From Nitrosospira multiformis ATCC 25196 (GTDB lineage Bacteria > Pseudomonadota > Gammaproteobacteria > Burkholderiales > Nitrosomonadaceae), in NCBI RefSeq assembly GCF_000196355.1, contig NC_007614.1, positions 2,160,001 to 2,192,000 of the forward strand: a DNA stretch of 32,000 bases. Direction: 5' to 3'. The position numbers were made by a program, and so were the translations under genes. Below the pieces are notes generated by a model. The model saw only the letters and a program-made list of their open reading frames with translations, was not told the DNA's origin and made no database searches. Shown here in pieces: positions 4,455 through 23,087 of the stretch; the first letter of the stretch is position 1; the number at the start of each line of letters is the position of its first letter.

Positions 4455-5240
4455 TCATAGCGGCAACTCGTGGGGCAACTCGTGGCGCAGTTCCGCCAGG
4501 CGAGCCAGGCAAAAATGAATGAAGGCCAGCCCTGTCAGCACAGCGGCGAACAGGTTTAAAATCGGCACGAATTGCACCAGACCCGCGAGCAGCCCCAAGC
4601 CCCACAACAGAGAGCGGTCCCTGGAAAATATAGCTCGCATTTCTTCCTGCGTGGCATGTTCCGCCAGCGCATCGTAGCGAAACAGGCGCTGATTCAGATA
4701 GGCGGCAGCAACAAACGGGATAACCACGCCTGCCCCCGCCAGCCATAATGGGAGGGTGATCAGCCAGATGGCAATGAAAATGGCAAGAGCAATCAGCGCA
4801 TTGAGCACACTGCCCGCGACCGTCCCGCCTTTTTCGCGTTTGAGTAGCGGATAGTCGCGACGTGCAACCAGACCGATCAGGGCAGGCATCGCGAACAAGG
4901 CGGTAATCACGAGTGCAGTCACAAAAACCAGCGGCACAAACAGAATCAGATGTGCCATCCCCTGGATTCCATAGGCGATCCACCTCGGTTCAACGCCTTC
5001 AAGCCAAGTCTGGATACCGATCGCCGTCAACACCTCGGCTATCCAGCCGGAGAAAGTCCCCCAGAAAGCCACGCCGAGCACCACCCACAGCAGACTTGCT
5101 GCGAGAATGGGCCAGACGATGATCCACAGCACCTGAAACTGAAACAAATCGCGAAACGCCCGCGATAACGCCTGAAATATCGCCTCCACAATCCCCCCTT
5201 CCAAATGCCGGAATTCGGCCATGAACGAGAGAATTGGCAT
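4455..5240 (-). CDS. EI24/CysZ-like integral membrane protein
   Basis: 261-aa ORF with about 6 hydrophobic helices. The pattern resembles the EI24/DUF540 family (FVPLVFV, YLNQRLFRYDAL, VPILNLFAAVLTGLAF). Family call is from memory only. Confidence 0.6.
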   Translation of the reverse strand: MPILSFMAEFRHLEGGIVEAIFQALSRAFRDLFQFQVLWIIVWPILAASLLWVVLGVAFWGTFSGWIAEVLTAIGIQTWLEGVEPRWIAYGIQGMAHLILFVPLVFVTALVITALFAMPALIGLVARRDYPLLKREKGGTVAGSVLNALIALAIFIAIWLITLPLWLAGAGVVIPFVAAAYLNQRLFRYDALAEHATQEEMRAIFSRDRSLLWGLGLLAGLVQFVPILNLFAAVLTGLAFIHFCLARLAELRHELPHELPL

Positions 5241-5380
5241 TATGCAACCTGCCGAATTGGCTGTGACGCAACTTCTCCCGCACTTCTCACCTCAGATCAA
5301 AAATAATGACGATCTCATGGCAAGCGCCGAGTGATTACATGCTTGCCCCATCCCGCCGGGCACACACTCTAATTGATTTA

Positions 5381-5399
5381 TAGTTGAAAAGTTCAACTA
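5381..5399. promoter_or_regulatory. perfect 19-nt inverted repeat TAGTTGAA-AAG-TTCAACTA (candidate operator)
   Basis: Read directly from the sequence. It lies in the 5241-5492 intergenic region, about 140 nt upstream of the EI24-like start and about 95 nt downstream of the stop of the 5493 gene. There is no adjacent U-tract, so it is not a classic terminator. Confidence 0.3.
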
Positions 5400-5492
5400 T
5401 GGCTGGAATGACGCCATGTAGCATGATAGCCGGAACAATACGCAGCAGAAGCAGCGGAAGGAAGGGAGACTAAAAGCTTTCTGCTGCTTCGA

Positions 5493-6083
5493 CTATTCGA
5501 TTCCGCCCTCGCATCGAGGATCCCACTCATACGCAAACGCGTTATACCACGTGCCATGTTCCCAAATTTCACCACATATCTCGCCGCAGATTTTTCGTTC
5601 GAATCCGCACATGCCTCCCAGCCGGAAATGTGCCGTATAAGCACCTGCCGCGTCGCCCCCCTTCAGTTCGATAACCACCCGGCCATTCTGCTCGGAGACA
5701 TGCAGCGAACGGGTGTTGGTGAGATCCCTATAGAATTTCTCCGGGATGTGGAATCGCTGCCCATCGATGAAAACAAGAAAAGTTTCAGTTACGAACCGGG
5801 GCACACCGCTATCCATTCCCCACATGCCACCGTCGGTTTCACGGCACTCACCGCTTTTACACTTGCGCTCATGGAAAATCACCCCTACCTTTTTGCCAGA
5901 GGGAAGCGCATGGTTTTTTTCGTGCTGAAAGGGCAGCGCTTCCTTTTGCGCAAGCACCGTGTCGGATGTAAAAAAGGATAGACCGATCAACGCAACGGAG
6001 AAGAGGGTAAAGCGCAAGCCGCTTCGTTTCAAGGGGTTCAACATCGTCGGATTGATGCATGGAGCATTACTGCCGCCTGCCAC
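5493..6083 (-). CDS. hypothetical Cys-rich secreted protein
   Basis: 196-aa ORF. GTG 6083 is preceded by GGGGGAGG; the alternative ATG 6044 (MLNPLKRSGLRF...) has no SD. It has a signal-like h-region (FTLFSVALIGLSFF) and Cys clusters (CKSGEC, CGFERKICGEICGEIW, PRCEG). I recognise no family. Confidence 0.5.
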   Translation of the reverse strand: MAGGSNAPCINPTMLNPLKRSGLRFTLFSVALIGLSFFTSDTVLAQKEALPFQHEKNHALPSGKKVGVIFHERKCKSGECRETDGGMWGMDSGVPRFVTETFLVFIDGQRFHIPEKFYRDLTNTRSLHVSEQNGRVVIELKGGDAAGAYTAHFRLGGMCGFERKICGEICGEIWEHGTWYNAFAYEWDPRCEGGIE

Positions 6084-6097
6084 GGTCCTCCCCCTGC

Positions 6098-6490
6098 TTA
6101 CTCGATTTCAATGAATATTTTCTGGGTCTCGGCTGCTGCTTTCATTTTCTGGAACAGGCGATCGAAAGCAACTCTGCTTTGTCCGATGAAATTGACACCT
6201 TTGGTATCGCCCACCAATATGCACCCTTCTGTATTCGCCGAGATATTGCCGGGATGTATCCTGACGCCTTCAAAACTTGGCACGTTCAAAAGGAGCGGAA
6301 GGGTTTTTTGAAACCTTTGGGAAAAATTGATGACAACCTCGTATTGCCCCGCGAAAATCGCGGTCTTGCCCTTGATCTTCACCGGCCTCACCTTGTCTTC
6401 CAGCGTGTAGCACTCGAACTCCCCATCGACTGACAATTCGCCTATCGTGCTGTCATCGGAAAATTCCAGTCTTTTTACACGCAGATCCAT
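6098..6490 (-). CDS. DUF5675-like small protein (phage/bacterial family, unknown function)
   Basis: 130-aa ORF with AAGGAG upstream of ATG 6490 and no signal peptide. The pattern STIGEL..G.F.CYTLED...G.YEV....S.RF....PLLLNVP.FEG.RIH.GN....TEGCILVG matches what I remember of DUF5675. Confidence 0.6.
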   Translation of the reverse strand: MDLRVKRLEFSDDSTIGELSVDGEFECYTLEDKVRPVKIKGKTAIFAGQYEVVINFSQRFQKTLPLLLNVPSFEGVRIHPGNISANTEGCILVGDTKGVNFIGQSRVAFDRLFQKMKAAAETQKIFIEIE

Positions 6491-8083: not shown

Positions 8084-9205
8084 ATGAAAACGCTGGATTT
8101 TCGCCGGGCGGGTGCGCACATTGCCTTGGTCGTGCTGTTCGCTGTTTGTCCGGTTGCGTTTGCTGATGAAAACGATGAAGTTGCCAAACTCTACCAGCAG
8201 GGCAATCTGGACAAGGCACTGGAACAGGCAAATGCGTACCTCGCGCTCAAGCCAAAGGATCCGCAGATGCGGTTTCACAAGGGGTTGATACTGACCGAGC
8301 AGCAGAAAATCCCTGATGCGATCAAGGTCTTTTCTTCACTGTCGGAAGATTACCCCAACCTGCCCGAGCCGTATAATAACCTGGCGGTACTCTATGCCAG
8401 CCAGGGCCTGTATGAAAAGGCGAGGGGAGCGCTGGAGGCCGCTATACGCACTCACCCCAGCTACTCCATTGCGCATGAGAACCTGGGTGATATCTATGCA
8501 AAACTGGCCAGCGAGGCTTACGGCAAGGCCTTGCAACTGGACCAGGGCAACGCCGCGGCCCAGACCAAGCTTGCAATGATCAAGGATTTATTCATCGGCA
8601 AATCCGGCGCGATAAAAACTGCATCCGCTGCCACTGCGCCGGCACCGCCTGCTTCAGCCGCCCCCCGCTCCCCTGCGGCCACTACGCCATCTCCTCCCCG
8701 ATCCGCTGCTCCCGCAACCCCGCCTGCTTCCGTCCACCCCGCGCCCGGTAAAGCCCCGCAAAAATCAGCGGAAAAAAAAACTGAAAAGGCGGAAAAATCA
8801 GCACCGGGAAAGATAGCCGCGGTTGAAACACATTCACCAGAAAAGAAAACCGATGTTCCGGACGAATCCGACGAAATCATCAAAACTGTCAATGCGTGGG
8901 CCAGGGCATGGTCCGACAAGAACGTGACGGCATACTTCGCATTCTACGCGGCTGACTTTCAAACTCCTCGTGGCGTCAAGCGCACAACATGGGAAAAAAC
9001 GCGACGCGACCGCATCATCAAGCCAAAAGCCATCCAGGTGGAGATCACTCACCCCAAGGTAACTTTAATCAATCCAGCACGCGCGAGGGTAAGCTTCAGG
9101 CAACTCTATCACTCCGACGCATTCAAACACGATTCGTCCAAAACACTTGAGATGGTTAAAACGGACGGGAAGTGGCAGATCCGACAGGAGCGCTCCGCGA
9201 AATGA
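8084..9205 (+). CDS. TPR protein with Pro/Ala-rich linker and C-terminal Cds6/NTF2-like domain
   Basis: 373-aa ORF with a GGAGAAG RBS and signal peptide (ALVVLFAVCPVAFA/DE). It has N-terminal TPRs, a low-complexity APAPPASAAPRSP... linker, and a C-terminal domain (WARAWSDKNVTAYFAFYAADF...GKWQI) that recurs in the next gene. Confidence 0.8.
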   Translation: MKTLDFRRAGAHIALVVLFAVCPVAFADENDEVAKLYQQGNLDKALEQANAYLALKPKDPQMRFHKGLILTEQQKIPDAIKVFSSLSEDYPNLPEPYNNLAVLYASQGLYEKARGALEAAIRTHPSYSIAHENLGDIYAKLASEAYGKALQLDQGNAAAQTKLAMIKDLFIGKSGAIKTASAATAPAPPASAAPRSPAATTPSPPRSAAPATPPASVHPAPGKAPQKSAEKKTEKAEKSAPGKIAAVETHSPEKKTDVPDESDEIIKTVNAWARAWSDKNVTAYFAFYAADFQTPRGVKRTTWEKTRRDRIIKPKAIQVEITHPKVTLINPARARVSFRQLYHSDAFKHDSSKTLEMVKTDGKWQIRQERSAK

Positions 9206-10443
9206 ATGTGCAAACTCCATCTGCCGGATGCACACGGCGGCTGATAATCATGCTTGCCGGGATAACCGGGGCAGCGCTTTCGCTCTGGATTACCGCCGCG
9301 CTGGCCGAGGAAGCCTTGGCCCTATCCACTGCCTCCACGACCGGACCGGAATCGATACTCGTCAAGAGTCTCCAGGAGATCTCCGAGAGCCGCATGGATT
9401 CCGCATTGAACGGAATCGAGCAACTACTCAAGACTAATCCGAATTTCCGGCTTGCTCATCTGATCAAGGGTGACCTGCTGCTGGCCCGCGCCCGTCCCAT
9501 TCACACCATTGGCGAAACTGGGACGGCAATACAGCAGCCTATCGACGATTTACGCGAGGAGGCAAGAGCACGGCTTCAGCGCCACTTGGCACCGATACCG
9601 CTCGACATGACCCCCAAGTATCTGCTGCAAATGCCGCCTGAGCAGAAATACGCAATCATTGCCGACACAGGCAGATCGCGGTTATATCTCTATAAGAATG
9701 TCGATGGAAGCCCGCGTTATCTGGCGGACTATTACATCAGTACGGGCAAGAACGGTTCTCAAAAGCTGAAGGAGGGGGATAAAAAGACACCCATAGGCGT
9801 CTACTTCGTTACTGACAACCTGCCGCGTCAAAGGCTATCGGATTTTTATGGAGGCATGGCGTTCCCCATCAACTATCCCAACGAATGGGACAAAAGGCAC
9901 GGGCGCAGCGGTTATGGCATCTGGCTGCACGGCACCCCTCCGGATACTTACAGCCGCCCGCCCCGAGCGAGCGATGGCTGCGTAGTACTTGCAAATGACG
10001 ACCTGAATGCACTGGCCTCAACACTTCAGGTCGGCATTACATCCGTCATCATCAGCGATCAGATGGAATGGGTCAAACCCCACGATGCCGCCGCGCTGCG
10101 TAGAAAACTGGCCCAGCACCTGGAGAGATGGCGGCGAAGCTGGGAAAGCGGAAATATGGATGATTACGTCGCCATTTACGGAAACGATTTTTCCAGTGGG
10201 GAGCAGAAGCTGACGGAATGGATGCGAGACAAACAGCAGGCGGGTGGGGAAAAAAACCCGCACAAGGTCGGTATCAGCAATGTAGGCATTTTTCTTTATC
10301 CTGGAAGAGATGATCTCGCGGTAATCAACTTCGATGAAGAATATTCCAGCAATGATCTTTCCAATAAAATGAAAAAACGCCAGTACTGGATGAAGGAAGA
10401 TAAAAGCGGATCCTGGAAGATCATTTACGAAAGTGCGGCATAA
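9202..10443 (+). CDS. L,D-transpeptidase (YkuD domain) with C-terminal Cds6-like domain
   Basis: YkuD catalytic motif GIWLHGTPPDTYSRPPRASDGCVVLAN. ATG 9202 overlaps the upstream TGA (ATGA), and there is a signal-like N-terminus (RRLIIMLAGITGAALSLWITAALA/EE). The ORF track start at 9172 would overlap the upstream gene by 34 nt. Confidence 0.85.
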   Translation: MNVQTPSAGCTRRLIIMLAGITGAALSLWITAALAEEALALSTASTTGPESILVKSLQEISESRMDSALNGIEQLLKTNPNFRLAHLIKGDLLLARARPIHTIGETGTAIQQPIDDLREEARARLQRHLAPIPLDMTPKYLLQMPPEQKYAIIADTGRSRLYLYKNVDGSPRYLADYYISTGKNGSQKLKEGDKKTPIGVYFVTDNLPRQRLSDFYGGMAFPINYPNEWDKRHGRSGYGIWLHGTPPDTYSRPPRASDGCVVLANDDLNALASTLQVGITSVIISDQMEWVKPHDAAALRRKLAQHLERWRRSWESGNMDDYVAIYGNDFSSGEQKLTEWMRDKQQAGGEKNPHKVGISNVGIFLYPGRDDLAVINFDEEYSSNDLSNKMKKRQYWMKEDKSGSWKIIYESAA

Positions 10444-13440: not shown

Positions 13441-15201
13441 CTACTTGACTACCGTCACGCTGACGGATGAGGATGCGCTATTTCCCGCCGCATCCTTGGC
13501 GACTACCTGAACAGTATGTGCACCCGCGGCAACATTACGTATATTCCAGTTGTAACCCAGCGTACTTCCCTTTCCGGTAGCCTTGAGCACGCCGTCGATG
13601 TAGAGCGCATAGGTAATTCCGGAAGCGCCGCTATCATCGCTTGCATTTACGCTGATGGGCACGTTGCTTCCCGAAACATTGCCTGTGACCGGATTTACGA
13701 TCTTCACCTGTGGCGCGGTAGTATCCCTGGCCACCGTTGTCGTTCCGTTTGCCACATTCACCGAGACGGTGGTCGAAGCCTTGGAGTTGCCGGCCGCATC
13801 GAATGCATAAGCGGTCAGGTTCGCCATACCGTTGGCTACGCCTGCCGAATCCCAGGTGAAGGCGAACGGCGCCGTGGTGTCGACTGCGACTGTGGTATTG
13901 TTGACCCGCAACTCGACACGGGTCACGCCGACGTTATCGCTCGCAGCCACGTTTACGCCGACCAGACCTGTTACGCTTGATCCGCCAGCAGGGGAAGTGA
14001 TGGAAACCGCCGGGGCCTGCGTGTCTCCGGCGACCACTGCCGAGGCCGCCGCCTGCACCGCGCGTGCAGCATCAACCCGTCCATAGCCATAATAGGGATC
14101 GCGCCCCGCTGTGCCCAGATCCACGGCAGTTGAAAACAGCAGACTCTCGATCTGGGTATTGGATAATGTCGGCTTTGCCGCCATCATGAGCGCCACCACG
14201 CCGGCCGTTACCGGACTTGAGAATGATGTGCCGGAAGCCGCGCCATAGCCGCCCCCCATAGTCGTCGTCCAAATTCCGGCTCCAGGCGCGGCAAGGGAGA
14301 TGTAGTTTCCGTAGCTCGACCAACTGGCTCTGAAGTCGTTCGCATCTGTAGCGGCTACAGCTACCATCGATGTCGTTACTGCATAATTCTGGAGCACTCC
14401 CGTATTTCCGCCACTCACGATCACCAGGCCACCTTTATCCTTCATGTATTGCGCCGCGCTCCGGGTGCTCGCACTGTCGGTCAGTCCGAGGAAGCTGGCA
14501 TTGGCGACGCGAACGCCGCGGTCTGCCGCATAGATAAGCCCTTGGGAAATCGCACTCCAGGTGGCATATCCAGTACTCCCGCTCACGCGGACAGGCATTA
14601 TTTTAGCCAACGCCGCCACGCCGGCAACGCCTTGGGCATTGTTTGCCATGGCTGCCGCTGACCCTGCAACCTTGGTTCCATGCCCGTAAACATCCGACGT
14701 GTTGGAATTGTTTTCGTAGAAATTCCAGCCTGGAACAAGCTGGGGTGAGAGATCAGGGTGATTCGGGTCAACTCCTGAATCCAGGATGGCGATGGTCACG
14801 CCGCTGCCCAGGGAACTGTCCCAGGCGGACGGAGCGCCAATCTTGGGCAAATGCCAGGCGCTGCCATAGTAGGGATCGTTCGGTATGAGCGCGGGTTCGA
14901 CTTCCTGGTCGATCTCGGCAAACTTGAGCGCCGGATGATGCGCAAGCCTTGCCGCCACCGCCTTCTCAGAGGCATTACCCGGCAAGTCGACGATGTACAG
15001 ATCGCTCTGCCCGATCTTCCTGCCCTTGCCGCCATGTTCGCCCAGAACCTTGGCCAGTTCCTTTTCCGGCAAGCCGGCACGCGGCATGACCAGGATGCGA
15101 CCCTTCGCCCAGCCAAGCGGCTTGTTCATTCCAGGCCCCCTGCCCTCCGGAGGCTCTGCACTGGAAATGACCGGACCCAATCCCAGCAAAACTGCCAGTA
15201 T
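13441..15201. repeat. direct repeat copy A (S8 gene body), mosaic 70-99% identity to 17846-19612
   Basis: Hand alignment at offset 4405-4411 nt. Near-identity blocks lie at about 13570-14030 and 14790-15201. Homology ends abruptly at 15201, inside the signal-peptide h-region. Confidence 0.85.
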
Positions 15202-15321
15202 GCCGCTCCAAAGGGGATACCAAGGTTTGGAGATGTGCTGCGAGTTGCGAGTGCTTGATTGAATAATGCCTGAAGCGGGTTCTCTTGAGCCAGTTGCAGG
15301 CGCTTTATGATTGATATTCAC
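13441..15321 (-). CDS. secreted S8 subtilisin-family serine protease with I9-like propeptide and two C-terminal Ig-like (Big_7-type) domains, paralog 1
   Basis: Catalytic triad contexts AILDSGVD, HGTKVAG and GTSFSSPVTAG. Two DT(Q/T)AP...ASD..G... Ig-like repeats are present. Best start is GTG 15321, 7 nt after GAGGAGG. The ORF track start at 15411 has no RBS, and the GTG start gives a length (626 aa) essentially equal to paralog 2. Confidence 0.9.
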   Translation of the reverse strand: MNINHKAPATGSREPASGIIQSSTRNSQHISKPWYPLWSGILAVLLGLGPVISSAEPPEGRGPGMNKPLGWAKGRILVMPRAGLPEKELAKVLGEHGGKGRKIGQSDLYIVDLPGNASEKAVAARLAHHPALKFAEIDQEVEPALIPNDPYYGSAWHLPKIGAPSAWDSSLGSGVTIAILDSGVDPNHPDLSPQLVPGWNFYENNSNTSDVYGHGTKVAGSAAAMANNAQGVAGVAALAKIMPVRVSGSTGYATWSAISQGLIYAADRGVRVANASFLGLTDSASTRSAAQYMKDKGGLVIVSGGNTGVLQNYAVTTSMVAVAATDANDFRASWSSYGNYISLAAPGAGIWTTTMGGGYGAASGTSFSSPVTAGVVALMMAAKPTLSNTQIESLLFSTAVDLGTAGRDPYYGYGRVDAARAVQAAASAVVAGDTQAPAVSITSPAGGSSVTGLVGVNVAASDNVGVTRVELRVNNTTVAVDTTAPFAFTWDSAGVANGMANLTAYAFDAAGNSKASTTVSVNVANGTTTVARDTTAPQVKIVNPVTGNVSGSNVPISVNASDDSGASGITYALYIDGVLKATGKGSTLGYNWNIRNVAAGAHTVQVVAKDAAGNSASSSVSVTVVK

Positions 15322-15908
15322 GTAGTTCCTCCTCTTGGGGAGGCGGAACCGCCTAGATAGGCCGGGTGCCGAAAAACGTACTGAGCCGGAGCATCGAGAT
15401 CCACTCAACACGTTCTAATAGCTTCTCGTCATCCAAAGAATCGACAAGAAAGAAAATGGCATTATCTGGCAGTCCTGCCGTCCTGGGGCCTTGAGCCCGG
15501 TAGACCGATGACTTTGCGTCCCCCGCTTTCGCGAGATTTGCCTTTTACAGATTAAAAATTGCAGCGTTATCGTATCTGAACTCCCCAGGGGGTATGGGTG
15601 AAGCAACTGCACAAAAATCATTCTGTTCGTTGCTTTATTTAAAGGTGAAAAATGCTGCCGCTCCCGAACCCCGAGGAGATTTCGAAATTTGCAATTCTTG
15701 CAAACCAAACTTCCTGCCACTCCGGGTCAAACAGTACTCCTCCTGGTCGAAGAATTTTACATATCACTGCAGAATGGAAGAGCTCGAAGCAAACAAGGCT
15801 GATTTTATTGGAGTTTTAATTTAGGCACGAAAATTGCTAAAGAAGCTCCGATAGGCCGAAAACGAAGTTTCGAACCTATCCAACAAAAACTTATCAGGAG
15901 AACAAATA

Positions 15909-16580
15909 ATGAAGAGTCATTTGAAGGGAGCGTTTGCTGCACTGGGACTGCTGTCTGTGGCAGGAGGTGCCCAGGCAGCAATTTTCCAAATCGATTTCAC
16001 TACTGCCGGCGCGTTTTCCGGCACCGCGCCGTCCCAGCCAACAGATCCGAATGCAATTTTTGCGACAGCGACTTTCGACGATCACAACAGCTCCGGGTCG
16101 GTGACGCTGACAATGAATGTCTTTAATAATTTGTCCGCTGGCGCTTACGTCAATGACTGGTACTTCAACGTCGATTCGGCGCCATTGAGCGGTATCACCT
16201 TTGTGAGCGGAGTGGCCGCGCAGACCATCCAGAACGGAACAGATGCGTTCAAGGCCGATGGCACCGGCGGCAACTTTGATTTCGCATTTCATTTTCCCAC
16301 CCGCAATCCCGGAGAGTTGGGGCAAGGTCATACGTCCGTATATACCTTGACGGGAGGGGGCATTACTGCCGATTCTTTTAACGCGGTATCGGTATCCGCA
16401 CCGCCCAACGCGGGTAATGGCGGATATGTCAGCGCGCTCCACGTCCAGGGCTATGGCAACAGTGTCTGGATCGGCACTGACGGCGGGCCACCTTCCAATG
16501 AAATACCAGAACCGGCAACGCTTGCACTACTCGGGCTTGGCCTTTTGGGAATCGCGGCAACCAGGCGCCAGAAACGCTAG
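15909..16580 (+). CDS. PEP-CTERM sorting-domain protein
   Basis: AGGAGA RBS, signal peptide (LGLLSVAGGAQA/AI), and C-terminal IPEPATLALLGLGLLGIAATRRQKR. Confidence 0.85.
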   Translation: MKSHLKGAFAALGLLSVAGGAQAAIFQIDFTTAGAFSGTAPSQPTDPNAIFATATFDDHNSSGSVTLTMNVFNNLSAGAYVNDWYFNVDSAPLSGITFVSGVAAQTIQNGTDAFKADGTGGNFDFAFHFPTRNPGELGQGHTSVYTLTGGGITADSFNAVSVSAPPNAGNGGYVSALHVQGYGNSVWIGTDGGPPSNEIPEPATLALLGLGLLGIAATRRQKR

Positions 16581-16610
16581 AGCCTGCAAACAAGACAACT
16601 TGCATGATCA

Positions 16611-16636
16611 AAAACCCCGCTCTCGCGGGGTTTTTG
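16611..16636 (+). terminator. rho-independent terminator
   Basis: AAAACCCCGC-TCTC-GCGGGGTTTTT lies 30 nt after the stop at 16580. It is flanked by an A-tract and a T-tract, so it could act in both directions. Confidence 0.8.
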
Positions 16637-16951
16637 TTATCGATAATATTTACACCTCCTTGCCCGTCAAGCCACGGTAGTGCCCGTAGAGCGAAACCCC
16701 GAGGATAAATATTCCGGCGATGCTCTTCCCAATAATCGATATCAACTCCCTCATGCACCCAGGCCTCTCGCGCCCCAGCCTTCATTCATATCGAAAATAT
16801 TTTCATGCCATATATTATTCCTATTACTATCTCAGCAGCGTTTGATTTGACACATGCTCAAGCGGAACAGCTAGATGTAAAAAAAATCGACAGGGATGGG
16901 TGGTAATAACACCGAAATATCCCAGCTTCCGGTTCATCTCTGTCGTTACCC

Positions 16952-16980
16952 AAAAAAAAGCTCGCCGAAGCGAGCTTTTT
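16952..16980 (-). terminator. rho-independent terminator
   Basis: A8-GCTCGC-CGAA-GCGAGC-T5. On the minus strand the stem is followed by U8, about 20 nt after the stop at 17001. Confidence 0.8.
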
Positions 16981-17000
16981 AACTGGAATAGCGAATCTGT

Positions 17001-17672
17001 TTAAGCAAGCCTATTTCTCTGCCTGCGCGATACACCCCATCCCAGCAGCCCCAGCCCGAGAAGGGCAAGCGTCGTCGGCTCCGGAAGCTCTTGCGGCGGC
17101 GGACCTCCGAGTTCGGTAGGCCCCAGGCGAACTTGCTGTAAATCAGAAATCCCCGTCATTTGAACAGTACTGTCGATCGTTACTTTCACCATTACCTGGT
17201 TATCCAGGGAAAAACCGGTGAAAAAGTTCTGCCCGGAACCACTAAGTGGCTGATTCAAGAAGCTGAAGGTTGTGCCGAACTGATCCAACAGAAAGATGTT
17301 GGCAGAACCATCCGCGGCAGCATCAATATTGAACTGGACTTTCGAGAATCCAAGATTTGGATCGACCAAGCCGAAATCGATAAAGTTAAATGAACCATCA
17401 GCTGCTTCAATACGCGCCTGCCCTCCCGCCGGAGCAAAAATGTCTTCGTTACTTGTGAATCTGACAAGCTCACCGGTAGTCGGCGGATTGAGCTGTCCGA
17501 TAACTTCATGATCAAGAGTTGGATCAGGTTGATTAAAAAGTACATTATCCACATCTCCCGAGCCCCCTACCAGTCCTGGGCTTAACTGAAGAGTCGCGAA
17601 TGTATTTCCTGATAAAAGCACGCCGAGCAAAGCAACTCCGGCGCAGATCTTAAGTTTTCTCATGCCGTTCAT
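17001..17672 (-). CDS. PEP-CTERM sorting-domain protein
   Basis: GGGAGGGG RBS, signal peptide (VALLGVLLSGNTFA/TL), and C-terminal LPEPTTLALLGLGLLGWGVSRRQRNRLA. GC is visibly lower than in the neighbouring genes. Confidence 0.85.
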   Translation of the reverse strand: MNGMRKLKICAGVALLGVLLSGNTFATLQLSPGLVGGSGDVDNVLFNQPDPTLDHEVIGQLNPPTTGELVRFTSNEDIFAPAGGQARIEAADGSFNFIDFGLVDPNLGFSKVQFNIDAAADGSANIFLLDQFGTTFSFLNQPLSGSGQNFFTGFSLDNQVMVKVTIDSTVQMTGISDLQQVRLGPTELGGPPPQELPEPTTLALLGLGLLGWGVSRRQRNRLA

Positions 17673-17845
17673 GTTATGCCCCTCCCAAGTAAGAAGTTAT
17701 CTCCCTCGCTTGATCTGAAGCAAGTTGGATGCCAATGAGAAAGTCTATGAAAAACCTCGAGTTTCTTCCATCTTCCCGGAAGGGGTGTAAAAATTTACGA
17801 CATGTGAACGGGTAATAACATGCTCCTTGCTACTGCTTCTATCGG

Positions 17846-19612
17846 TTACTTGATCACTGTCACATTCACCGAAGCAGATGCTGTATTGCCCGCCGCATCT
17901 CTGGCGACCGTCCAGATAGTGTGTGCTCCCGCGCGCACATTGCTTGGGCGGGTATTCCAGCTATATCCTAACGTACTTCCTTTTCCGGTAGCCTTGAGCA
18001 CGCCGTCGATGTAGAGCGTACAGGTGATTCCGGAAGCGCCGCTATCATCGCTTGCATTCACGCTGATGGCCACATTGCTGCCCGAAACATTGCCTGTGAC
18101 CGGATTTACGATCTTCACCTGTGGCGCGGTAGTATCCCTGGCCACCGTTGTCGTTCCGTTTGCCACATTCACCGAGACGGTGGTCGAAGCCTTGGAGTTG
18201 CCGGCCGCATCGAATGCATAAGCGGTCAGGTTCGCCATACCGTTGGCTACGCCTGCCGAATCCCAGGTGAAGGCGAACGGCGCCGTGGTGTCGACTGCGA
18301 CTGTGGTATTGTTGACCCGCAACTCGACACGAGTCACGCCGACGTTATCGCTCGCAGCCACGTTTACGCCGACCAGGCCTGTTACGCTTGATCCGCCAGC
18401 AGGGGAAGTGATGGAAACCGCCGGAGCCTGCGTATCTGCTGTCAGCGTGGTGCCGGCGGCGGCCTGTACGGCACGCGCCGCATTCACTCGCCCATAGCCG
18501 TAGTAAGGATCGCGCCCTGGCGTTCCAAGATCCACCGCCGTGGAATACAGCAGACTCTCGATCTGGGTATTGGATAATGTCGGCTTTGCCGCCATCATGA
18601 GCGCCACCACCCCAGCCGTTACCGGGCTTGAGAACGACGTGCCGGAAACCGCGCCATAGCCGCCACCCTTGGTAGTGCTCCAGATTCCTGCACCGGGAGC
18701 CGCGAGAGCAATGTAATTACCATAACTAGACCAGCTCGTCCGTACGTCATTTCCGTCAGTGGCAGAGACAGGAATCATGCTGGTGGTTGCGGCATAATTT
18801 TGCTGTACGCCAGTGTTGCCCCCGCTGACAATGACAAGGCCGCCTTTGTTCTTCAGGTATTGCGCCGCACTGCGAGTACTCGCACTGTCGGTCAGTCCGA
18901 GAAAGCTGGCATTGGCGACGCGAACCCCGCGGTCTGCCGCATAGATAAGCCCTTGGGAAATCGCACTCCAGGTGGCATACCCATCAGAGCCACTTACCCG
19001 GATCGGCATGATCTTCGCCCGTGCCGCCACCGAGGCCACCCCCAGCGCGTTATTGCCTGCCGCTCCCGCCGCACCCGCAACCTTGGTGCCATGCCCGTAA
19101 ACATCCGATGTATTGGAATTGTTCTCGTAGAAATTCCAGCCTGGCACCAGTTCCGTAGCCAGATCAGGGTGAGTGCTATCGACTCCTGAATCCAGGATGG
19201 CGATGGTCACGCCGCTGCCCAGGGAACTGTCCCAGGCGGACGGAGCGCCAATCTTGGGCAAATGCCAGGCGCTGCCATAGTAGGGATCGTTCGGAATGAG
19301 CGCGGGTTCGACTTCCTGGTCGATCTCGGCAAACTTGAGCGCCGGATGATGCGCAAGCCTTGCCGCCACCGCCTTCTCGGAGGCATTACCCGGCAAGTCG
19401 ACGATATACAGATCGCTCTGCCCGATCTTCCTGCCCTTGCCGCCATGTTCGCCCAGAACCTTGGCCAGTTCCTTTTCCGGCAAGCCGGCACGCGGCATGA
19501 CCAGGATGCGACCCTTCGCCCAGCCAACCGGCTTGTTCATTCCAGGCCCCCTGCCCTCCGGAGGCTCTGCACTGGAAATGACCGGACCCAATCCCAGCAA
19601 AACTGCCAGTAT
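17846..19612. repeat. direct repeat copy B (S8 gene body)
   Basis: Counterpart of 13441-15201. Copy B carries 6 extra nt near its 3' end (protein NTRPSNVRAG versus NIRNVAAG in copy A). Confidence 0.85.
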
Positions 19613-19726
19613 CGCCCCTGCAAAACGGCAGCTGGATGAGGCAACCTTTGCGCGTATGTTTGATATGAACCTCTCGGCAAGCCGGGCCGCTACACCGGCC
19701 TGCTCTTCCCTCTTGTCGGCGTTCAT
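17846..19726 (-). CDS. secreted S8 subtilisin-family serine protease with I9-like propeptide and two C-terminal Ig-like domains, paralog 2
   Basis: 626 aa, with ATG 19726 preceded by GAAAGGAG. It has the same triad contexts and domain order as 13441-15321. There is no other in-frame ATG/GTG/TTG before the h-region. Confidence 0.9.
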   Translation of the reverse strand: MNADKREEQAGVAARLAERFISNIRAKVASSSCRFAGAILAVLLGLGPVISSAEPPEGRGPGMNKPVGWAKGRILVMPRAGLPEKELAKVLGEHGGKGRKIGQSDLYIVDLPGNASEKAVAARLAHHPALKFAEIDQEVEPALIPNDPYYGSAWHLPKIGAPSAWDSSLGSGVTIAILDSGVDSTHPDLATELVPGWNFYENNSNTSDVYGHGTKVAGAAGAAGNNALGVASVAARAKIMPIRVSGSDGYATWSAISQGLIYAADRGVRVANASFLGLTDSASTRSAAQYLKNKGGLVIVSGGNTGVQQNYAATTSMIPVSATDGNDVRTSWSSYGNYIALAAPGAGIWSTTKGGGYGAVSGTSFSSPVTAGVVALMMAAKPTLSNTQIESLLYSTAVDLGTPGRDPYYGYGRVNAARAVQAAAGTTLTADTQAPAVSITSPAGGSSVTGLVGVNVAASDNVGVTRVELRVNNTTVAVDTTAPFAFTWDSAGVANGMANLTAYAFDAAGNSKASTTVSVNVANGTTTVARDTTAPQVKIVNPVTGNVSGSNVAISVNASDDSGASGITCTLYIDGVLKATGKGSTLGYSWNTRPSNVRAGAHTIWTVARDAAGNTASASVNVTVIK

Positions 19727-20427: not shown

Positions 20428-20919
20428 CTACTCTGTAGTGGCACGGACGAATGTTCCCGTCACGGTCACTATTCCCGGTTCGGGCAAGGCTTCAATCCGG
20501 CCCTTTTCGAAACGCACGCGCTGTAACTGCATTGCTACAGTCCACTTCAGCCAGTCCGCGAAGGGCACAGCCTTAAACGTGACCTGGACCTGATCATCCC
20601 CCAGTGCATCAATGCCATTCAAAGCATGAGAAAGTCCGAGGATGTCTGCCTGGGTTTGCGCGAGCGCATGCAAATCGCCGGATAAGGGGGGCGGAGATGG
20701 AGTAACCTTTATACGCTCGTACTCGGCCGCCTGTTGCTCGAACTCTTCCGCCTGGACGCGCAGTTGCGGAAGGTTCGAGCGCAATCGGGTACGCGCCCTG
20801 TCCGCCGAGCTGACCAGCCCCAGATAAAGTCCCGCGCTCAAAATCATTCCCAATATTGTGATGACCCGCCGCTCCCGGGGAGAGCGTGATTCCCATGCTT
20901 TCCGCAGCTGTTTCCTCAC
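20428..20919 (-). CDS. gspM: type II secretion system protein M
   Basis: 163 aa. GTG 20919 overlaps the gspL stop (GTGA). A short cytoplasmic N-terminus is followed by one TM helix (VITILGMILSAGLYLGLV) and a periplasmic domain. Its position after gspL supports the call. Confidence 0.8.
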   Translation of the reverse strand: MRKQLRKAWESRSPRERRVITILGMILSAGLYLGLVSSADRARTRLRSNLPQLRVQAEEFEQQAAEYERIKVTPSPPPLSGDLHALAQTQADILGLSHALNGIDALGDDQVQVTFKAVPFADWLKWTVAMQLQRVRFEKGRIEALPEPGIVTVTGTFVRATTE

Positions 20920-22172
20920 GGAGTCGTCACCACGAGCACAACGATTCCGGCACCCCCGTCTGTCGGTGCCGGGTTGATATCGACACTCAGATCGTTTTCC
21001 CGCAACCGGGCGGCAATACGGTTCGCGAGTCCTTCCTCCGCGGCCAGCTCAAGCGCTATTCTCCCGCTATCATAGGAAATCGCATGCAGACTGCCAGAAG
21101 CCAGTTCGCTCAATGCCGGTCCCACTGTTTTGATCATGGGCAAGAAATCGGCCGTATCGGGAACGCCTGCCGCATGCCGCGCTTCGATGAGCTTTCGCCG
21201 CATCTGTAGCGCAGGGTCCACTACCGCGACCGCAGCCGGAAATAGGGCGCGAAACCGGGTTTCCATTTGCTGATGCAAGGCACGCTCTTCATTGGCAAGC
21301 AATGCCCAGTCAGCGGCAACGGCCAGGGAATGGAGCACCAACGCTGCCGCGCCGATCCAGACTGCCGGGCGCAGACGTGAAAGAAGTCCCCTGAAAGGAG
21401 GCCAGCGTCTGTGTTTCTGCAGCAAGCTGATACTGGATTGCTGAGCCCCGCGCCAATCCCAGGTCCCCGCAATGTATACAGGAATGCCGAGCACCCGTTG
21501 CCACGCTTCGATATCTGGCGCTGCCGCAGGATTCTTCATGATCTCACCGGCACTCTCCTCAAATGTCATTGCGCCTTCAGGCTCAATTGTATAGAGCGCG
21601 ATGGATGCCGGTCTCGCTCCATGCCTTTCCGCATCTTCGAGCATGAGATGCAATGACAACGGAGGAGACGCATCGCCTCCGCAATCTGTTGCTCCCCCTT
21701 CAAACTCGCCGGTGCGCACAAAACCTTCCCGGCCCTCCCAGGCGAAACTCCATTCTCCCGGCGTCCATGGCAATAACAGTGTTTCGCAGTAAATTTCATC
21801 CACTTGGATAGCAGCTGCCTGCAGCGCATCGAGACACTGCGTCAACCTTTTCTTATCCACTGCCGCGAGTATGTCCTCGCCTCCAGCGGAACCGATCCAG
21901 CTCACTTGATTAGCCTCAGGCTCACGCAGCATTTCTTCTTCGACCGCAAACGCCAGTACTGACCCAGGCTGCCGCCTCGCAGCGTCAGGTAAGCGAGCCC
22001 GTGTGAGCAAAACCTGGGCAGCTGGAATGATCAACTGGACAGAACTCGCGTTTTTCGGCAGATCAGCTATCTGCCCCTCCCCTGTCAAGGGCAATCCATC
22101 ATCGCCCGTCCATATCCACTGGCAACTCAATGATTCCTCCAGAAGAGGACACCGGATTCTTAGCAGGCTCAT
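20916..22172 (-). CDS. gspL: type II secretion system protein L
   Basis: 418 aa. ATG 22172 overlaps the gspK stop (ATGA). It has an actin-like cytoplasmic N-domain, a single TM helix (AVWIGAAALVLHSLAVAADWAL) and a periplasmic C-domain. The call also rests on operon position. Confidence 0.85.
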   Translation of the reverse strand: MSLLRIRCPLLEESLSCQWIWTGDDGLPLTGEGQIADLPKNASSVQLIIPAAQVLLTRARLPDAARRQPGSVLAFAVEEEMLREPEANQVSWIGSAGGEDILAAVDKKRLTQCLDALQAAAIQVDEIYCETLLLPWTPGEWSFAWEGREGFVRTGEFEGGATDCGGDASPPLSLHLMLEDAERHGARPASIALYTIEPEGAMTFEESAGEIMKNPAAAPDIEAWQRVLGIPVYIAGTWDWRGAQQSSISLLQKHRRWPPFRGLLSRLRPAVWIGAAALVLHSLAVAADWALLANEERALHQQMETRFRALFPAAVAVVDPALQMRRKLIEARHAAGVPDTADFLPMIKTVGPALSELASGSLHAISYDSGRIALELAAEEGLANRIAARLRENDLSVDINPAPTDGGAGIVVLVVTTP

Positions 22173-23083
22173 GAATATTTACGCCAGACAATAACGGGCC
22201 ACCCGCCCTCCTCACGGTTAAGGAGGACCACTCCCCCGGCATGGGCTTCGCCGATAACTACACTGAGTGCCGCAAGAAAATAATTGCTACTGGTGCCAAT
22301 ATCGTTTTCCTCCACCGCAGCGCCCTGAGGAAGACGATTGAGAAAATCGGCATGATCACGAAAATGGGCGCGCGCGCGCTGGAAAGTCAATATGCGGGCA
22401 TTTCCAATTCCCAGACCCTCAACAATGGCAGCAAGCACTTCGGGGGGCGCCGTATTGACATTGACAGTGGTAAAGCTCGGCAGGGCCGTCACGAACGGAC
22501 GCAAACGCGCGCGGATATCCCTGTTGAAACCGCGAATGCGGGCCAGTTCCGCTACATCGGTCAAGGGCCTGTTGGCAGTAAGGTAAGAAGGGTTCAGCAC
22601 ACTGTAATATTCATCCTCGGCGCCGTGCTGGGGACGAGGTTCGCTGTCCACGTCTATCCAGTCAGCCAATGCATCGGCAAGCGCATCCGGCAAATCGAGC
22701 AAGGCCAGCAAGCGCTTGAAGTAAGCAAGCTGTGTCGCACTGATTTTTCCATCGGGAGCCAGGTTGTTCAGATTGAACAAGCCCTGCTGATCGTGGATGT
22801 GGCCCGTGAGTTCACCGTTTTCAATGGGCATCGCCGGAATCTGCAATGCCCAGGGTTCGCCCAGGTGATCGACGCTGCCCATCCGGCCATCATCGCTCAG
22901 CACAGCGCGGACCCAGTCCACCCCCGCCTTGACCATCGCCTGCGCCTGAACGTAATCCTGCGCAAGCTCGCTTTGCCGTGACCAGATACCCTGTGCGGTA
23001 ATGATCGCTGTTGCGGTTATCGACGCGAGCGCCACGACACCCATGGCAAGCACGACTGCTACCCCACGTTGTCCTGTTCTCAT
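22169..23083 (-). CDS. gspK: type II secretion minor pseudopilin K
   Basis: 304 aa. The N-terminus QRG/VAVVLAMGVVAL lacks Glu+5, as is typical for GspK. It also has a GEPWA motif and HhH-like C-terminal repeats (VNVNTAPPEVLAAI). Confidence 0.85.
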   Translation of the reverse strand: MRTGQRGVAVVLAMGVVALASITATAIITAQGIWSRQSELAQDYVQAQAMVKAGVDWVRAVLSDDGRMGSVDHLGEPWALQIPAMPIENGELTGHIHDQQGLFNLNNLAPDGKISATQLAYFKRLLALLDLPDALADALADWIDVDSEPRPQHGAEDEYYSVLNPSYLTANRPLTDVAELARIRGFNRDIRARLRPFVTALPSFTTVNVNTAPPEVLAAIVEGLGIGNARILTFQRARAHFRDHADFLNRLPQGAAVEENDIGTSSNYFLAALSVVIGEAHAGGVVLLNREEGGWPVIVWRKYS

Positions 23084-23087
23084 GATG

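What the first reader, a model, noticed from the sequence alone, without database searches (positions are those of the whole stretch)
5493..6490. Two-gene insert next to cysS: signal-less DUF5675-like protein with an L,D-transpeptidase-like His...Cys motif plus a Cys-rich secreted partner
Seen: the 130-aa protein contains FEGVRIHPGNISANTEGCILVG. This reproduces the YkuD catalytic signature pattern [IL]-H-x-G ... [ST]-x-G-C-[IV] found in the bona fide L,D-transpeptidase of this same window (GIWLHGTPPDTYSRPPRASDGCVVLAN). However, the protein is only one small domain and has no export signal. Its stop (6098-6100) is embedded in the SD region (GGGGGAGG) of the next ORF. That ORF is a 196-aa protein with a signal-like N-terminus and three Cys clusters, and I recognise no family for it. 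Inference: a minimal YkuD-like Cys enzyme of phage ancestry is paired with an exported Cys-rich protein. They could form a small cell-wall-acting or effector/immunity-type pair. The function of this family is, as far as I know, undescribed.
Basis: partly seen in the sequence, partly recalled or inferred. Interest (0 to 1): 0.5.

Follow-up and report, generated by a model that had tools for sequence, protein, structure and literature searches.

The report
Domesticated phage cell-wall peptidase operon
A small cysteine enzyme that phages use to cut the bacterial cell wall at lysis has become a permanent, conserved chromosomal gene in the soil ammonia-oxidiser Nitrosospira, stripped of its phage helper genes and joined to an unrelated exported protein of unknown function; it is a modestly interesting case of gene domestication, not a new kind of system.

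Summary
The described sequence features are present. Two co-directional minus-strand genes lie at 5493-6490 in a Nitrosospira multiformis chromosome.

**Gene A (130 aa)** is a clear DUF5675 protein (Pfam E=1e-33). His79, Cys90, Gly89, Glu31 and Asp32 are invariant in more than 140 relatives. Profile comparison and recurrent weak Pfam hits place its catalytic half in the YkuD/Tlde1 L,D-transpeptidase superfamily, but only remotely. Foldseek against the PDB found nothing. crAss-phage annotations and a 2026 preprint had already noted this link.

In phages the family sits between holin-like and spanin-like genes, in the endolysin position. The Nitrosospira copies form one clade nested among phage sequences. 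They are syntenic in 8 of 8 loci, under purifying selection, and have shifted from basic (pI about 9.4) to acidic (about 5.5). No holin is present.

**Gene B** is a Sec-exported all-beta protein with six Cys. It belongs to an uncurated family of about 290 clusters, and its Cys residues are specific to Nitrosospira. The A-B pairing occurs only in Nitrosospira: 0 of 83 phage loci and 0 of 14 distant B loci show it.

The effector/immunity reading is therefore not supported, though not excluded. My best guess is a domesticated L,D-peptidase that now works inside the cell.

The parts
6098..6490 (-). Gene A: a 130-aa DUF5675 protein (14.6 kDa, pI 5.9) with no signal peptide. It is a Cys/His peptidase of phage-endolysin type.
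   Evidence: ORF. Pfam PF18925 at E=1.1e-33. PHROG 1501. AF2 pLDDT 91.4. 100% identical to the N. multiformis protein P0001. pI.
6209..6265 (-). Catalytic motif VRIH79PGNISANT87EGC90ILVG. Proposed roles: His79 general base, Thr87 of the (S/T)xGC motif, Cys90 nucleophile.
   Evidence: H79, G89 and C90 are invariant in 60, 84 and 20 sequences. Position 87 is T or S in 59 of 60. hhalign aligns these residues with the YkuD His and SxGC. Tlde1a has H121/S128/C131 (PMC9638812).
6498..6503 (-). Shine-Dalgarno AAGGAG, 7 nt upstream of the gene A ATG
   Evidence: Read directly from the sequence.
6087..6094 (-). GGGGGAGG run between the gene A stop (6098-6100) and the GTG at 6081-6083. It is a possible ribosome-binding site for gene B.
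   Evidence: Read directly from the sequence.
5493..6083 (-). Gene B: an exported all-beta protein. It is 196 aa from the GTG at 6083. The conserved start is more likely the ATG at 6044 (183 aa). The mature form is about 151 aa with six Cys.
   Evidence: ORF. Orthologue alignment with conserved Cys. AF2 pLDDT 80.5 with nine strands. No Pfam, PHROG, NCBIfam or PADLOC hit. 291 distant relatives.
5946..6044 (-). Signal peptide of gene B (MLNPLKRSGLRFTLFSVALIGLSFFTSDTVLA|Q), SPase I type, no lipobox
   Evidence: Hydrophobic segment. Region disordered in the AF2 model, residues 1-33. An equivalent N-terminus is present in all family members.
5442..5487 (-). Hairpin just after the gene B stop. It is terminator-like and marks the likely end of the A-B transcription unit in this strain.
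   Evidence: RNA fold -21.4 kcal/mol, z=-2.3. The simple terminator scan did not call it.

Best explanation
**What it is.** Gene A is a DUF5675 enzyme, a small Cys/His peptidase. Its catalytic half is a remote, shortened version of the YkuD/Tlde1 (MEROPS C82) L,D-transpeptidase active site. In phages this family is the endolysin of holin-endolysin-spanin cassettes.

**History.** One copy was captured from a phage by the ancestor of Nitrosospira. It lost its holin and spanin and became a core gene in a conserved block: A-B-EI24-TPR-DUF488-RmuC. It kept every catalytic residue under purifying selection. Its charge changed from basic to acidic.

**The partner.** Gene A is co-transcribed with gene B. 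Gene B is a Sec-exported, probably disulfide-stabilised beta protein from an unrelated, uncurated family. It was recruited only in this lineage.

**Chemistry (inferred by analogy with YkuD and Tlde1).** Cys90, activated by His79 and positioned by Thr87, attacks the L-centre carbonyl of meso-diaminopimelate in a tetrapeptide stem. This forms a thioester and releases D-Ala. Water then resolves the thioester, giving L,D-carboxypeptidase or L,D-endopeptidase activity.

**Where it acts (my commitment, inferred).** The Nitrosospira enzyme has no signal peptide, no holin and an acidic pI, and it behaves like a housekeeping gene. I therefore think it now works in the cytoplasm. There it would trim recycled tetrapeptide muropeptides to tripeptides, an LdcA-like role. 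Gene B would be a periplasmic operon-mate in cell-wall turnover rather than a dedicated immunity protein.

**Likelihoods.**
- Identity and domestication: about 0.85.
- YkuD/Tlde1-type chemistry: about 0.65.
- Cytoplasmic recycling role: about 0.35.
For: **Shown: family and conservation.**
- DUF5675 membership.
- Invariant H79, G89, C90, E31 and D32 in 60 + 84 + 20 sequences.

**Shown: remote link to YkuD/Tlde1.**
- hhalign P=4e-4 over residues 43-96. It aligns TAIPxGxY with KTPxGxY, His with His, and TxGC with SxGC.
- Controls give P=0.16-0.57.
- Weak Tlde1_dom hits in 11 of 20 members and weak YkuD hits in 2 of 20.
- Tlde1a has the same short H/S/C spacing.
- Independent 'C82-like' and 'L,D-carboxypeptidase/transpeptidase' labels.

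**Shown: phage context.**
- 43 of 65 adjacent upstream ORFs are short with 1-2 TM segments.
- 35 of 60 adjacent downstream ORFs have a lipobox plus a C-terminal TM segment.
- In crAss phage cr112_1 the gene lies next to holin and lysis-regulator genes.

**Shown: domestication.**
- The Nitrosospira clade is monophyletic, with a phage sister clade.
- The A-B-EI24 order is kept in 8 of 8 loci.
- dN is 0.13-0.20 for A, 0.25-0.32 for B and 0.14-0.24 for the neighbouring EI24 gene. dS is saturated.
- No tRNA, repeats or phage genes in the window.

**Shown: charge shift.** pI 9.4 in phages against 5.5 in Nitrosospira.

**Shown: operon signals.** Shine-Dalgarno sequence, a 14-nt gap to the GTG start of gene B, and a downstream hairpin.
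Against: - Foldseek against the PDB, which includes YkuD, Csd6 and Tlde1a entries, gave no hit at E<=0.001. The best TM-score was about 0.2.
- A profile search of PDB sequences found nothing real.
- hhalign probability is only 34%, from small alignments.
- I had no model coordinates, so His-Cys proximity is inferred only from strand topology.
- No enzymology for any DUF5675 protein was found in the searched literature.
- The cytoplasmic-recycling role rests on indirect arguments: no signal, no holin, acidic pI and core-gene behaviour.
- That role does not explain why an exported protein is kept immediately downstream in all 8 loci.
- I could not check whether Nitrosospira lacks LdcA.
Confidence: 0.4

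Rival explanations
1. **Effector/immunity pair, Tlde1/Tldi1-like.** Gene A would be a small signal-less toxin delivered into the periplasm of competitors by T6SS or another route. Gene B would be the periplasmic immunity protein that binds and blocks it.
For: - The architecture matches: a signal-less enzyme of about 14.6 kDa, followed within 9-53 nt by a Sec-exported protein.
- The closest Pfam resemblance is to the Tlde1 domain.
- Gene B evolves about 1.5-2 times faster than gene A.
- Distant B relatives lie in variable regions near toxin-antitoxin modules, as orphan immunity genes often do.
Against: - A-B pairing is absent outside Nitrosospira: 0 of 83 phage A loci and 0 of 14 distant B loci.
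- The pair behaves as a syntenic core locus, not as an accessory or exchanged one.
- No T6SS, Rhs or PAAR gene appeared among 20 of the larger window ORFs scanned with Pfam.
- No literature links Nitrosospira multiformis with T6SS.
- The B family shares conserved motifs across phyla without any DUF5675 partner. This suggests B has a function of its own.
Confidence: 0.17
2. **Retained autolysin.** Gene A would still be a lytic endolysin. The cell would use it for programmed lysis, vesicle release or DNA release, with access provided by a holin encoded elsewhere. Gene B would act in the periplasm as a regulator, inhibitor or spanin substitute.
For: - The family occupies the endolysin slot in phages.
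- All catalytic residues are retained.
- Gene B sits where phages carry the spanin.
Against: - No holin is adjacent in any of the 8 loci.
- The basic-to-acidic charge shift is the opposite of what wall-binding lysins show.
- Gene B has neither a lipobox nor a C-terminal TM segment, so it is not spanin-like.
- Gene B has no phage homologue by sequence or by fold.
Confidence: 0.13
3. **Convergent motif.** DUF5675 would not be related to YkuD at all. The His...Cys motif would be convergent, and the enzyme would cleave a different bond, or would not act on peptidoglycan.
For: - Foldseek found no YkuD or Tlde1 hit for a confident model.
- Sequence searches of the PDB found nothing.
- Pfam hits to Tlde1_dom and YkuD are all below the gathering thresholds.
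- The preprint itself reports 'significant differences' from C82.
Against: - hhalign aligns three separate YkuD landmarks in the correct order at P=4e-4. Controls are at chance level.
- Weak hits recur in 11 of 20 diverse members and always to the same superfamily.
- The lysis-cassette context in phages argues for a peptidoglycan substrate.
Confidence: 0.15
4. **Decaying prophage remnant.** The pair would have no current function.
For: - Phage ancestry of gene A.
- Loss of the holin and spanin.
Against: - Intact ORFs in 8 of 8 loci across the genus.
- dN is far below the saturated dS.
- Catalytic residues are invariant.
- Good Shine-Dalgarno sequence.
- Composition close to that of the host.
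Confidence: 0.03

Closest known systems
Phage DUF5675 proteins (PF18925 / PHROG 1501). Examples: crAss-like phage 'L,D-carboxypeptidase/transpeptidase' (YP_010111404 in cr112_1) and LysPd160 of bioRxiv 10.64898/2026.04.11.717860
   Same: - Same family: 35-66% identity.
- Same length and single-domain build.
- Same invariant residues: His, (S/T)xGC and ED.
- No signal peptide.
   Different: - The phage copies are basic (median pI 9.4) and flanked by holin-like and spanin-like genes.
- The Nitrosospira copy is acidic and has neither flanking gene.
- It sits in a housekeeping block and is followed by an exported protein that no phage carries.
Tlde1/Tldi1, the T6SS L,D-carboxypeptidase/transpeptidase effector and its periplasmic immunity protein (Salmonella; PMC9638812)
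   Same: - Small signal-less Cys/His enzyme.
- Short His...(S/T)xGC spacing (H121/S128/C131 against H79/T87/C90).
- Downstream gene for a Sec-exported protein.
- Weak Tlde1_dom Pfam hits.
   Different: - Pfam score is 13.8 bits against a 30.1 cut-off.
- Foldseek does not retrieve Tlde1a.
- No T6SS genes nearby.
- Gene B matched no curated family. I did not compare it with Tldi1 directly.
- The locus is core and syntenic, not accessory.
Canonical YkuD L,D-transpeptidases and L,D-carboxypeptidases (PF03734). Examples: LdtB/D/E, Csd6, Pgp2, and the window's own gene at 9172-10440
   Same: - Ordered landmarks KTPxGxY, the catalytic His and SxGC(I/V) align (hhalign P=4e-4).
- A Cys thioester mechanism is expected.
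   Different: - His-Cys spacing is 10 residues against 14-18.
- The N-terminal half (residues 1-42) has no counterpart.
- No export signal.
- No accessory domains (LysM, PG-binding, NTF2).
- No global fold match by Foldseek.
LdcA (peptidase S66), the cytoplasmic muropeptide L,D-carboxypeptidase
   Same: Only the proposed role is shared: a cytoplasmic enzyme that removes D-Ala4 from recycled tetrapeptides.
   Different: The fold and catalytic triad (Ser-His-Glu) are unrelated. The functional analogy is untested.

Membership tests
DUF5675 (Pfam PF18925) | Match to the family HMM above the gathering score, over the full domain | tested here: met
   116 bits against a 26.7 cut-off. Residues 5-117 match profile positions 2-113 of 114.
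DUF5675 (Pfam PF18925) | Family-invariant residues present (E31, D32, H79, G89, C90, G94, S105) | tested here: met
   All are present in the window protein and invariant in the 60-, 84- and 20-sequence alignments.
YkuD L,D-transpeptidase family (Pfam PF03734 / MEROPS C82) | Match to the family HMM above the gathering score | tested here: not met
   No YkuD hit for the window protein at E<=1. Two of 20 relatives hit weakly, best E=0.025.
YkuD L,D-transpeptidase family (Pfam PF03734 / MEROPS C82) | Active-site motif H-x(14-17)-(S/T)-x-G-C-h | tested here: inconclusive
   T87-E-G-C90-I fits (S/T)xGCh, and His79 is invariant. However, the His-to-(S/T) gap is 7 residues, not 14-17. This resembles the Tlde1a spacing H121/S128/C131.
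YkuD L,D-transpeptidase family (Pfam PF03734 / MEROPS C82) | YkuD beta-sandwich catalytic fold | tested here: inconclusive
   - Foldseek of the pLDDT-91 model against the PDB found no match at E<=0.001.
- hhalign gives P=4e-4 with catalytic residues in register.
- The preprint reports partial structural similarity.
YkuD L,D-transpeptidase family (Pfam PF03734 / MEROPS C82) | Exported to the periplasm or cell wall by a signal peptide or lipoprotein signal | tested here: not met
   No hydrophobic N-terminal segment in gene A.
Tlde1 T6SS effector (Pfam PF10908) with Tldi1 immunity | Match to the Tlde1_dom HMM above the gathering score | tested here: not met
   13.8 bits against a 30.1 cut-off, covering only residues 75-104. 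Eleven of 20 relatives hit weakly, best E=0.011.
Tlde1 T6SS effector (Pfam PF10908) with Tldi1 immunity | Genomic link to T6SS genes (Hcp, VgrG, PAAR or the core cluster) | tested here: not met
   Twenty of the larger window ORFs were scanned with Pfam. They gave housekeeping genes, proteases, PEP-CTERM proteins and T2SS, but no T6SS. The rest of the genome was not testable.
Tlde1 T6SS effector (Pfam PF10908) with Tldi1 immunity | A cognate periplasmic immunity gene immediately downstream that co-occurs with the effector across lineages | tested here: inconclusive
   An exported downstream gene is present in 8 of 8 Nitrosospira loci. Co-occurrence outside the genus is zero: 0 of 83 and 0 of 14. 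Binding was not testable.
Phage endolysin (functional class) | Located in a lysis cassette with a holin, and a spanin in Gram-negative hosts | tested here: not met
   This is met for the phage homologues. It is not met in the window or in any Nitrosospira locus.
Phage endolysin (functional class) | Demonstrated peptidoglycan-degrading activity | not testable with these tools
   No biochemical data for any DUF5675 protein were found in the searched literature.

The most novel reading that the evidence does not exclude
A phage endolysin of the DUF5675 / C82-like class was converted into a core, holin-independent housekeeping enzyme of ammonia-oxidising Nitrosospira. One possible role is a cytoplasmic L,D-carboxypeptidase that replaces LdcA in muropeptide recycling. 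It would work together with a new family of exported, disulfide-rich beta proteins whose fold matches nothing in the PDB or BFVD. Alternatively, gene B could be a new immunity or inhibitor fold for C82-like peptidases.
Probability: 0.25. Interest if true: 0.6.

Novelty: new variant of a known kind. Interest (0 to 1): 0.38.

Why it matters
DUF5675 is abundant. It gave more than 1,800 protein clusters, hundreds of phage contigs, and hits in crAss-like phages, Vibrio and Campylobacter phages and even microviruses. I found no biochemical characterisation of it in the searched literature.

The Nitrosospira locus is a natural experiment. The catalytic core has been kept for the life of a genus without holin or spanin, and with a reversed surface charge. 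Working out what it does there would help assign a substrate to the whole family, which is relevant to lysin discovery. It would also document how a lytic phage enzyme is made safe and useful to a host.

Gene B points to an uncurated family of secreted proteins with no detectable fold relative.

None of this changes current concepts. It extends them.

Tried and rejected
**Structure and PDB searches**
- Foldseek of the gene A model against the PDB: no significant hit.
- Foldseek of the gene B model against the PDB and BFVD: none.
- Profile and single-sequence searches of PDB sequences with gene A: only spurious hits, namely a designed PPR protein, flavodoxin and TRIM71.

**Family libraries**
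- NCBIfam for both proteins, PHROGs for gene B, and PADLOC for both: nothing. Gene A does hit PHROG 1501, of unknown function.
- Pfam on 30 members of the gene B family: only scattered single hits, with no recurrent family.
- PHROG annotation of the phage holin-like and spanin-like neighbours: 'unknown function' only. Those roles rest on TM and lipobox features.

**Searches of sequence collections**
- tblastn of gene B against phages: no match.
- Gene A in plasmids: one Prevotella replicon, unannotated.

**Signs of recent insertion**
- No tRNA.
- No flanking repeats.
- Only a slight GC dip, 0.50 against 0.55.
- No Rfam hit.
- I therefore rejected a recent insertion.

**Other**
- Literature on T6SS in Nitrosospira: nothing relevant.
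- I considered a resemblance of gene B's GGDAAGSY motif to the MliC/PliC lysozyme-inhibitor motif. I dropped it because no Pfam or fold hit supported it.
- The first related-loci scan with the wide alignment A4 failed for lack of a conserved stretch.
- One exact-protein look-up, P0105, was not on record.
Full report
**1. What is in the sequence**

The window is a Nitrosospira multiformis chromosome. The gene A product is 100% identical to an N. multiformis 'DUF5675 family protein' found on a 3.18-Mb contig.

Two co-directional ORFs lie on the minus strand. Gene A is 6098-6490 (130 aa). Gene B is 5493-6083 (196 aa, from GTG).

Gene A has a canonical AAGGAG 7 nt before its ATG. Its TAA stop is followed after 3 nt by GGGGGAGG, and then by the GTG of gene B. 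Alignment of 58 orthologues suggests that the conserved start of gene B is the ATG at 6044, giving 183 aa. Either start gives a Sec-type signal peptide ending VLA|Q.

A hairpin follows the gene B stop (-21.4 kcal/mol, z=-2.3). The next gene starts 252 nt further on. In this strain A-B therefore looks like a two-gene transcription unit.

The neighbours are housekeeping genes. On one side lie RmuC, DUF488, a TPR protein and an EI24/CysZ-family membrane protein. On the other lie cysS, a TPR-Cds6_C protein, a YkuD protein and two cyclophilins. The rest of the window holds proteases, PEP-CTERM proteins and T2SS genes. There is no tRNA, no flanking repeat and no Rfam hit, and only a slight GC dip.

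**2. Gene A is a DUF5675 protein with an invariant His/Cys pair**

Gene A matches Pfam PF18925 at E=1.1e-33 and PHROG 1501 at E=6e-24.

I checked conservation in three sets:
- 60 sequences mixing Nitrosospira and crAss-like phage proteins;
- 84 sequences comprising the window protein and 83 phage loci, 80 of them IMG/VR contigs;
- 20 representatives at 62% identity or less.

In all three, E31, D32, H79, G89, C90, G94 and S105 are invariant. Position 87 is T or S in 59 of 60 sequences. Cys27 is replaced in some crAss-type members, so it is not catalytic.

The window's real YkuD protein reads L-H-G, and its His-Cys gap is 17 residues rather than 10. The two motifs are therefore similar, not identical.

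**3. Is it YkuD-like?**

*Evidence for:*
- **hhalign.** A 143-sequence DUF5675 profile was compared with an 8-sequence YkuD alignment: E. coli LdtB, LdtD, LdtE and DpaA, the window's LDT, and PDB entries 7o21, 4xzz and 6xj6. The result was P=4e-4 at 34% probability over residues 43-96.
- **Aligned landmarks.** Three YkuD landmarks aligned in order. TAIPxGxY aligned with KTPxGxY, GVRIH with GIxIH, and TEGC with SxGC. The reversed YkuD alignment gave P=0.3-0.57, and the gene B profiles gave P=0.16-0.24.
- **Weak Pfam hits.** Eleven of 20 diverse members hit Pfam Tlde1_dom weakly, and 2 of 20 hit YkuD. No other family recurs in more than three.
- **Tlde1a spacing.** Tlde1a's catalytic H121/S128/C131 have the same short spacing as H79/T87/C90 (PMC9638812).
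- **Earlier labels.** crAss-like phage records label the protein 'L,D-carboxypeptidase/transpeptidase'. A 2026 preprint classes DUF5675 as 'C82-like' by structure, with 'significant differences'.

*Evidence against:*
- The AF2 model is confident (pLDDT 91.4). Even so, Foldseek against the PDB gave no hit at E<=0.001, with a best TM-score of about 0.2.
- Sequence searches of the PDB gave nothing real.
- I had no coordinates to measure the His-Cys distance.

My reading is that the catalytic half is a remote homologue of the YkuD/Tlde1 active site. The protein is not a member of either Pfam family.

**4. What the family does in phages**

tblastn finds the family in 229 phage records. These include crAss-like, Vibrio and Campylobacter phages and microviruses. 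More than 593 IMG/VR stretches encode relatives at 53-66% identity.

In cr112_1 the gene follows 'lysis regulatory protein' and 'holin' genes. Across the 80 IMG/VR loci:
- 43 of 65 adjacent upstream ORFs are short with 1-2 TM segments. Eight more are longer, with 2-4 TM segments.
- 35 of 60 adjacent downstream ORFs carry an N-terminal lipobox plus a C-terminal TM segment. This is the architecture of a unimolecular spanin.
- These neighbours often overlap the DUF5675 gene by 12-51 nt.

This is the endolysin position of a Gram-negative lysis cassette. The holin and spanin roles are inferred from sequence features, because PHROGs gives them no function.

**5. The Nitrosospira copy is domesticated**

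- **Phylogeny.** In a neighbour-joining tree, 31 Nitrosospira-type sequences form one clade. The clade lies six nodes deep and has a five-member phage sister clade.
- **Synteny.** All eight Nitrosospira-type loci examined have A, then B, then the EI24-family gene, then TPR and DUF488. RmuC follows wherever the locus extends that far. These loci are the window plus L086-L088 and L106-L109.
- **Breakpoint.** Upstream, cysS is replaced in one clade by genes for FHA, PP2C, an S41 peptidase and a kinase. The pair is therefore not an 'insert next to cysS'. It belongs to an old syntenic block whose breakpoint lies just upstream of gene A.
- **Selection.** dN is 0.13-0.20 for A, 0.25-0.32 for B and 0.14-0.24 for the EI24 gene. 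dS is saturated.
- **Charge.** Phage proteins have a median pI of 9.4 (n=83). Nitrosospira orthologues have a median of 5.5 (n=46).
- **Missing helpers.** No holin-like or spanin-like ORF is adjacent in any of the eight loci.

**6. Gene B**

Gene B matches no curated family. It has 94 close clusters, all from Nitrosospira or Nitrosovibrio.

A profile search of 1.84 billion representatives finds 291 proteins at E<=1e-3 and 40 at E<=1e-10. The members aligned are proteins of about 160 aa with N-terminal signal peptides. They share the motifs LxSG, DDGxxWGxDGGxP, IPxKxYxDLxN, GGDAAGSY and ERxVRxGExPxxxWEKT. The six Cys are confined to the Nitrosospira branch.

The AF2 model shows nine beta strands, with pLDDT above 90 in the core. 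It has no fold match in the PDB or BFVD, and tblastn finds no phage match.

Fourteen distant loci, two from genomes and twelve from metagenomes, carry no DUF5675 gene. About ten of them have enough upstream sequence to be informative. Their neighbours vary and include toxin-antitoxin modules and a Sel1 protein. Conversely, none of the 83 phage DUF5675 loci has a gene B relative.

The pairing is thus a single event, inherited vertically.

**7. Interpretation**

*Shown:*
- the family identity of gene A and its invariant Cys/His pair;
- the endolysin context in phages;
- single-origin domestication with loss of the helper genes;
- purifying selection and the charge reversal;
- a lineage-specific operon with an exported protein.

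*Inferred by analogy with YkuD and Tlde1:* a Cys90 thioester forms on the L-centre carbonyl of meso-diaminopimelate, releasing D-Ala4 and whatever is attached to it. This would make the phage enzymes L,D-endopeptidases or L,D-carboxypeptidases.

*Inferred and uncertain:* the site of action in Nitrosospira. There is no signal and no holin, the pI is acidic, and the gene evolves like a housekeeping gene. I favour a cytoplasmic role in trimming recycled tetrapeptides, at about 0.35. YkuD-type sites accept tetrapeptide donors, so pentapeptide precursors would be spared. This does not explain why gene B is kept downstream.

*Alternatives:*
- The effector/immunity reading (about 0.17) fits the architecture and the Tlde1 resemblance. 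It lacks independent co-occurrence and any secretion-system link.
- A retained autolysin is possible (about 0.13).
- A convergent motif is possible (about 0.15).
- A dead remnant is essentially excluded.

**8. Novelty**

The family, its name and its LDT-like nature are already in databases and in one preprint.

What is new:
- the genus-wide chromosomal fixation without lysis partners;
- the charge reversal;
- the exclusive operon with a member of an uncurated secreted-protein family.

I rate this a new variant of a known kind, of moderate interest.

Noticed in passing
window 6098-6490, compared with loci L006-L085: Charge reversal after domestication. Phage DUF5675 proteins have a median pI of 9.4 (n=83). 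Nitrosospira orthologues have a median of 5.5 (n=46). The window protein, at 5.9, is the lowest value in the phage-plus-window set.
   Followed up: partly
window 8084-10443 (+): The window's 'bona fide L,D-transpeptidase' (9172-10440) has as its best solved relatives 7o21, Csd6 (4xzz) and Pgp2 (6xj6). The latter two are L,D-carboxypeptidase-type YkuD enzymes. Like them, the window protein has a C-terminal NTF2-like (Cds6_C) domain. It overlaps an upstream TPR + Cds6_C gene (8084-9205). It may therefore be a carboxypeptidase rather than a cross-linking enzyme.
   Followed up: partly
L088 1-5900; L107-L109 1-3900: In a second Nitrosospira clade, cysS upstream of gene A is replaced by a cluster encoding FHA-domain proteins, a PP2C phosphatase, an S41 peptidase and a Ser/Thr kinase. 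In that clade gene B and the EI24-family gene are only 27-62 nt apart, or overlap by 4 nt. This hints at a three-gene unit there.
   Followed up: no
L006-L085, ORFs flanking position about 5000-5400: The environmental phage lysis cassettes have one-TM holin-like ORFs of about 60 aa. They also have proteins of about 160 aa with a lipobox and a C-terminal TM segment (unimolecular-spanin architecture). PHROGs lists both as 'unknown function'.
   Followed up: partly
phage records MT135445.1, PV067912.1, MH992181.1 (hits H17, H19, H30): DUF5675-like ORFs occur in 4.7-5.4-kb microvirus/gokushovirus genomes and are unannotated in two of the three records. A cell-wall peptidase in such small genomes would bear on how these phages lyse their hosts.
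   Followed up: no
L101 2577-3136 and 4282-4913; L004/L094/L095 downstream of the gene B relative: Distant gene B relatives sit in variable regions. Some lie next to what look like toxin-antitoxin pairs, judged by eye from ORF translations as CopG/PemK-like and AbrB/PIN-like. In Thermoanaerobaculia they lie directly upstream of a Sel1-repeat protein.
   Followed up: partly
window 13441-19726 and 20916-23708: Two paralogous S8 subtilases with Big_7 domains are interleaved with PEP-CTERM proteins. Genes for T2SS GspJ, GspK and GspL follow.
   Followed up: no
window 6410-6412 (Cys27 codon of gene A): A second Cys sits in the ECYTLED motif. It is conserved in all 84 sequences of the window-plus-phage-loci set, but is replaced by A, M, S or T in 7 of 30 crAss-type members. 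Its role is unknown.
   Followed up: partly
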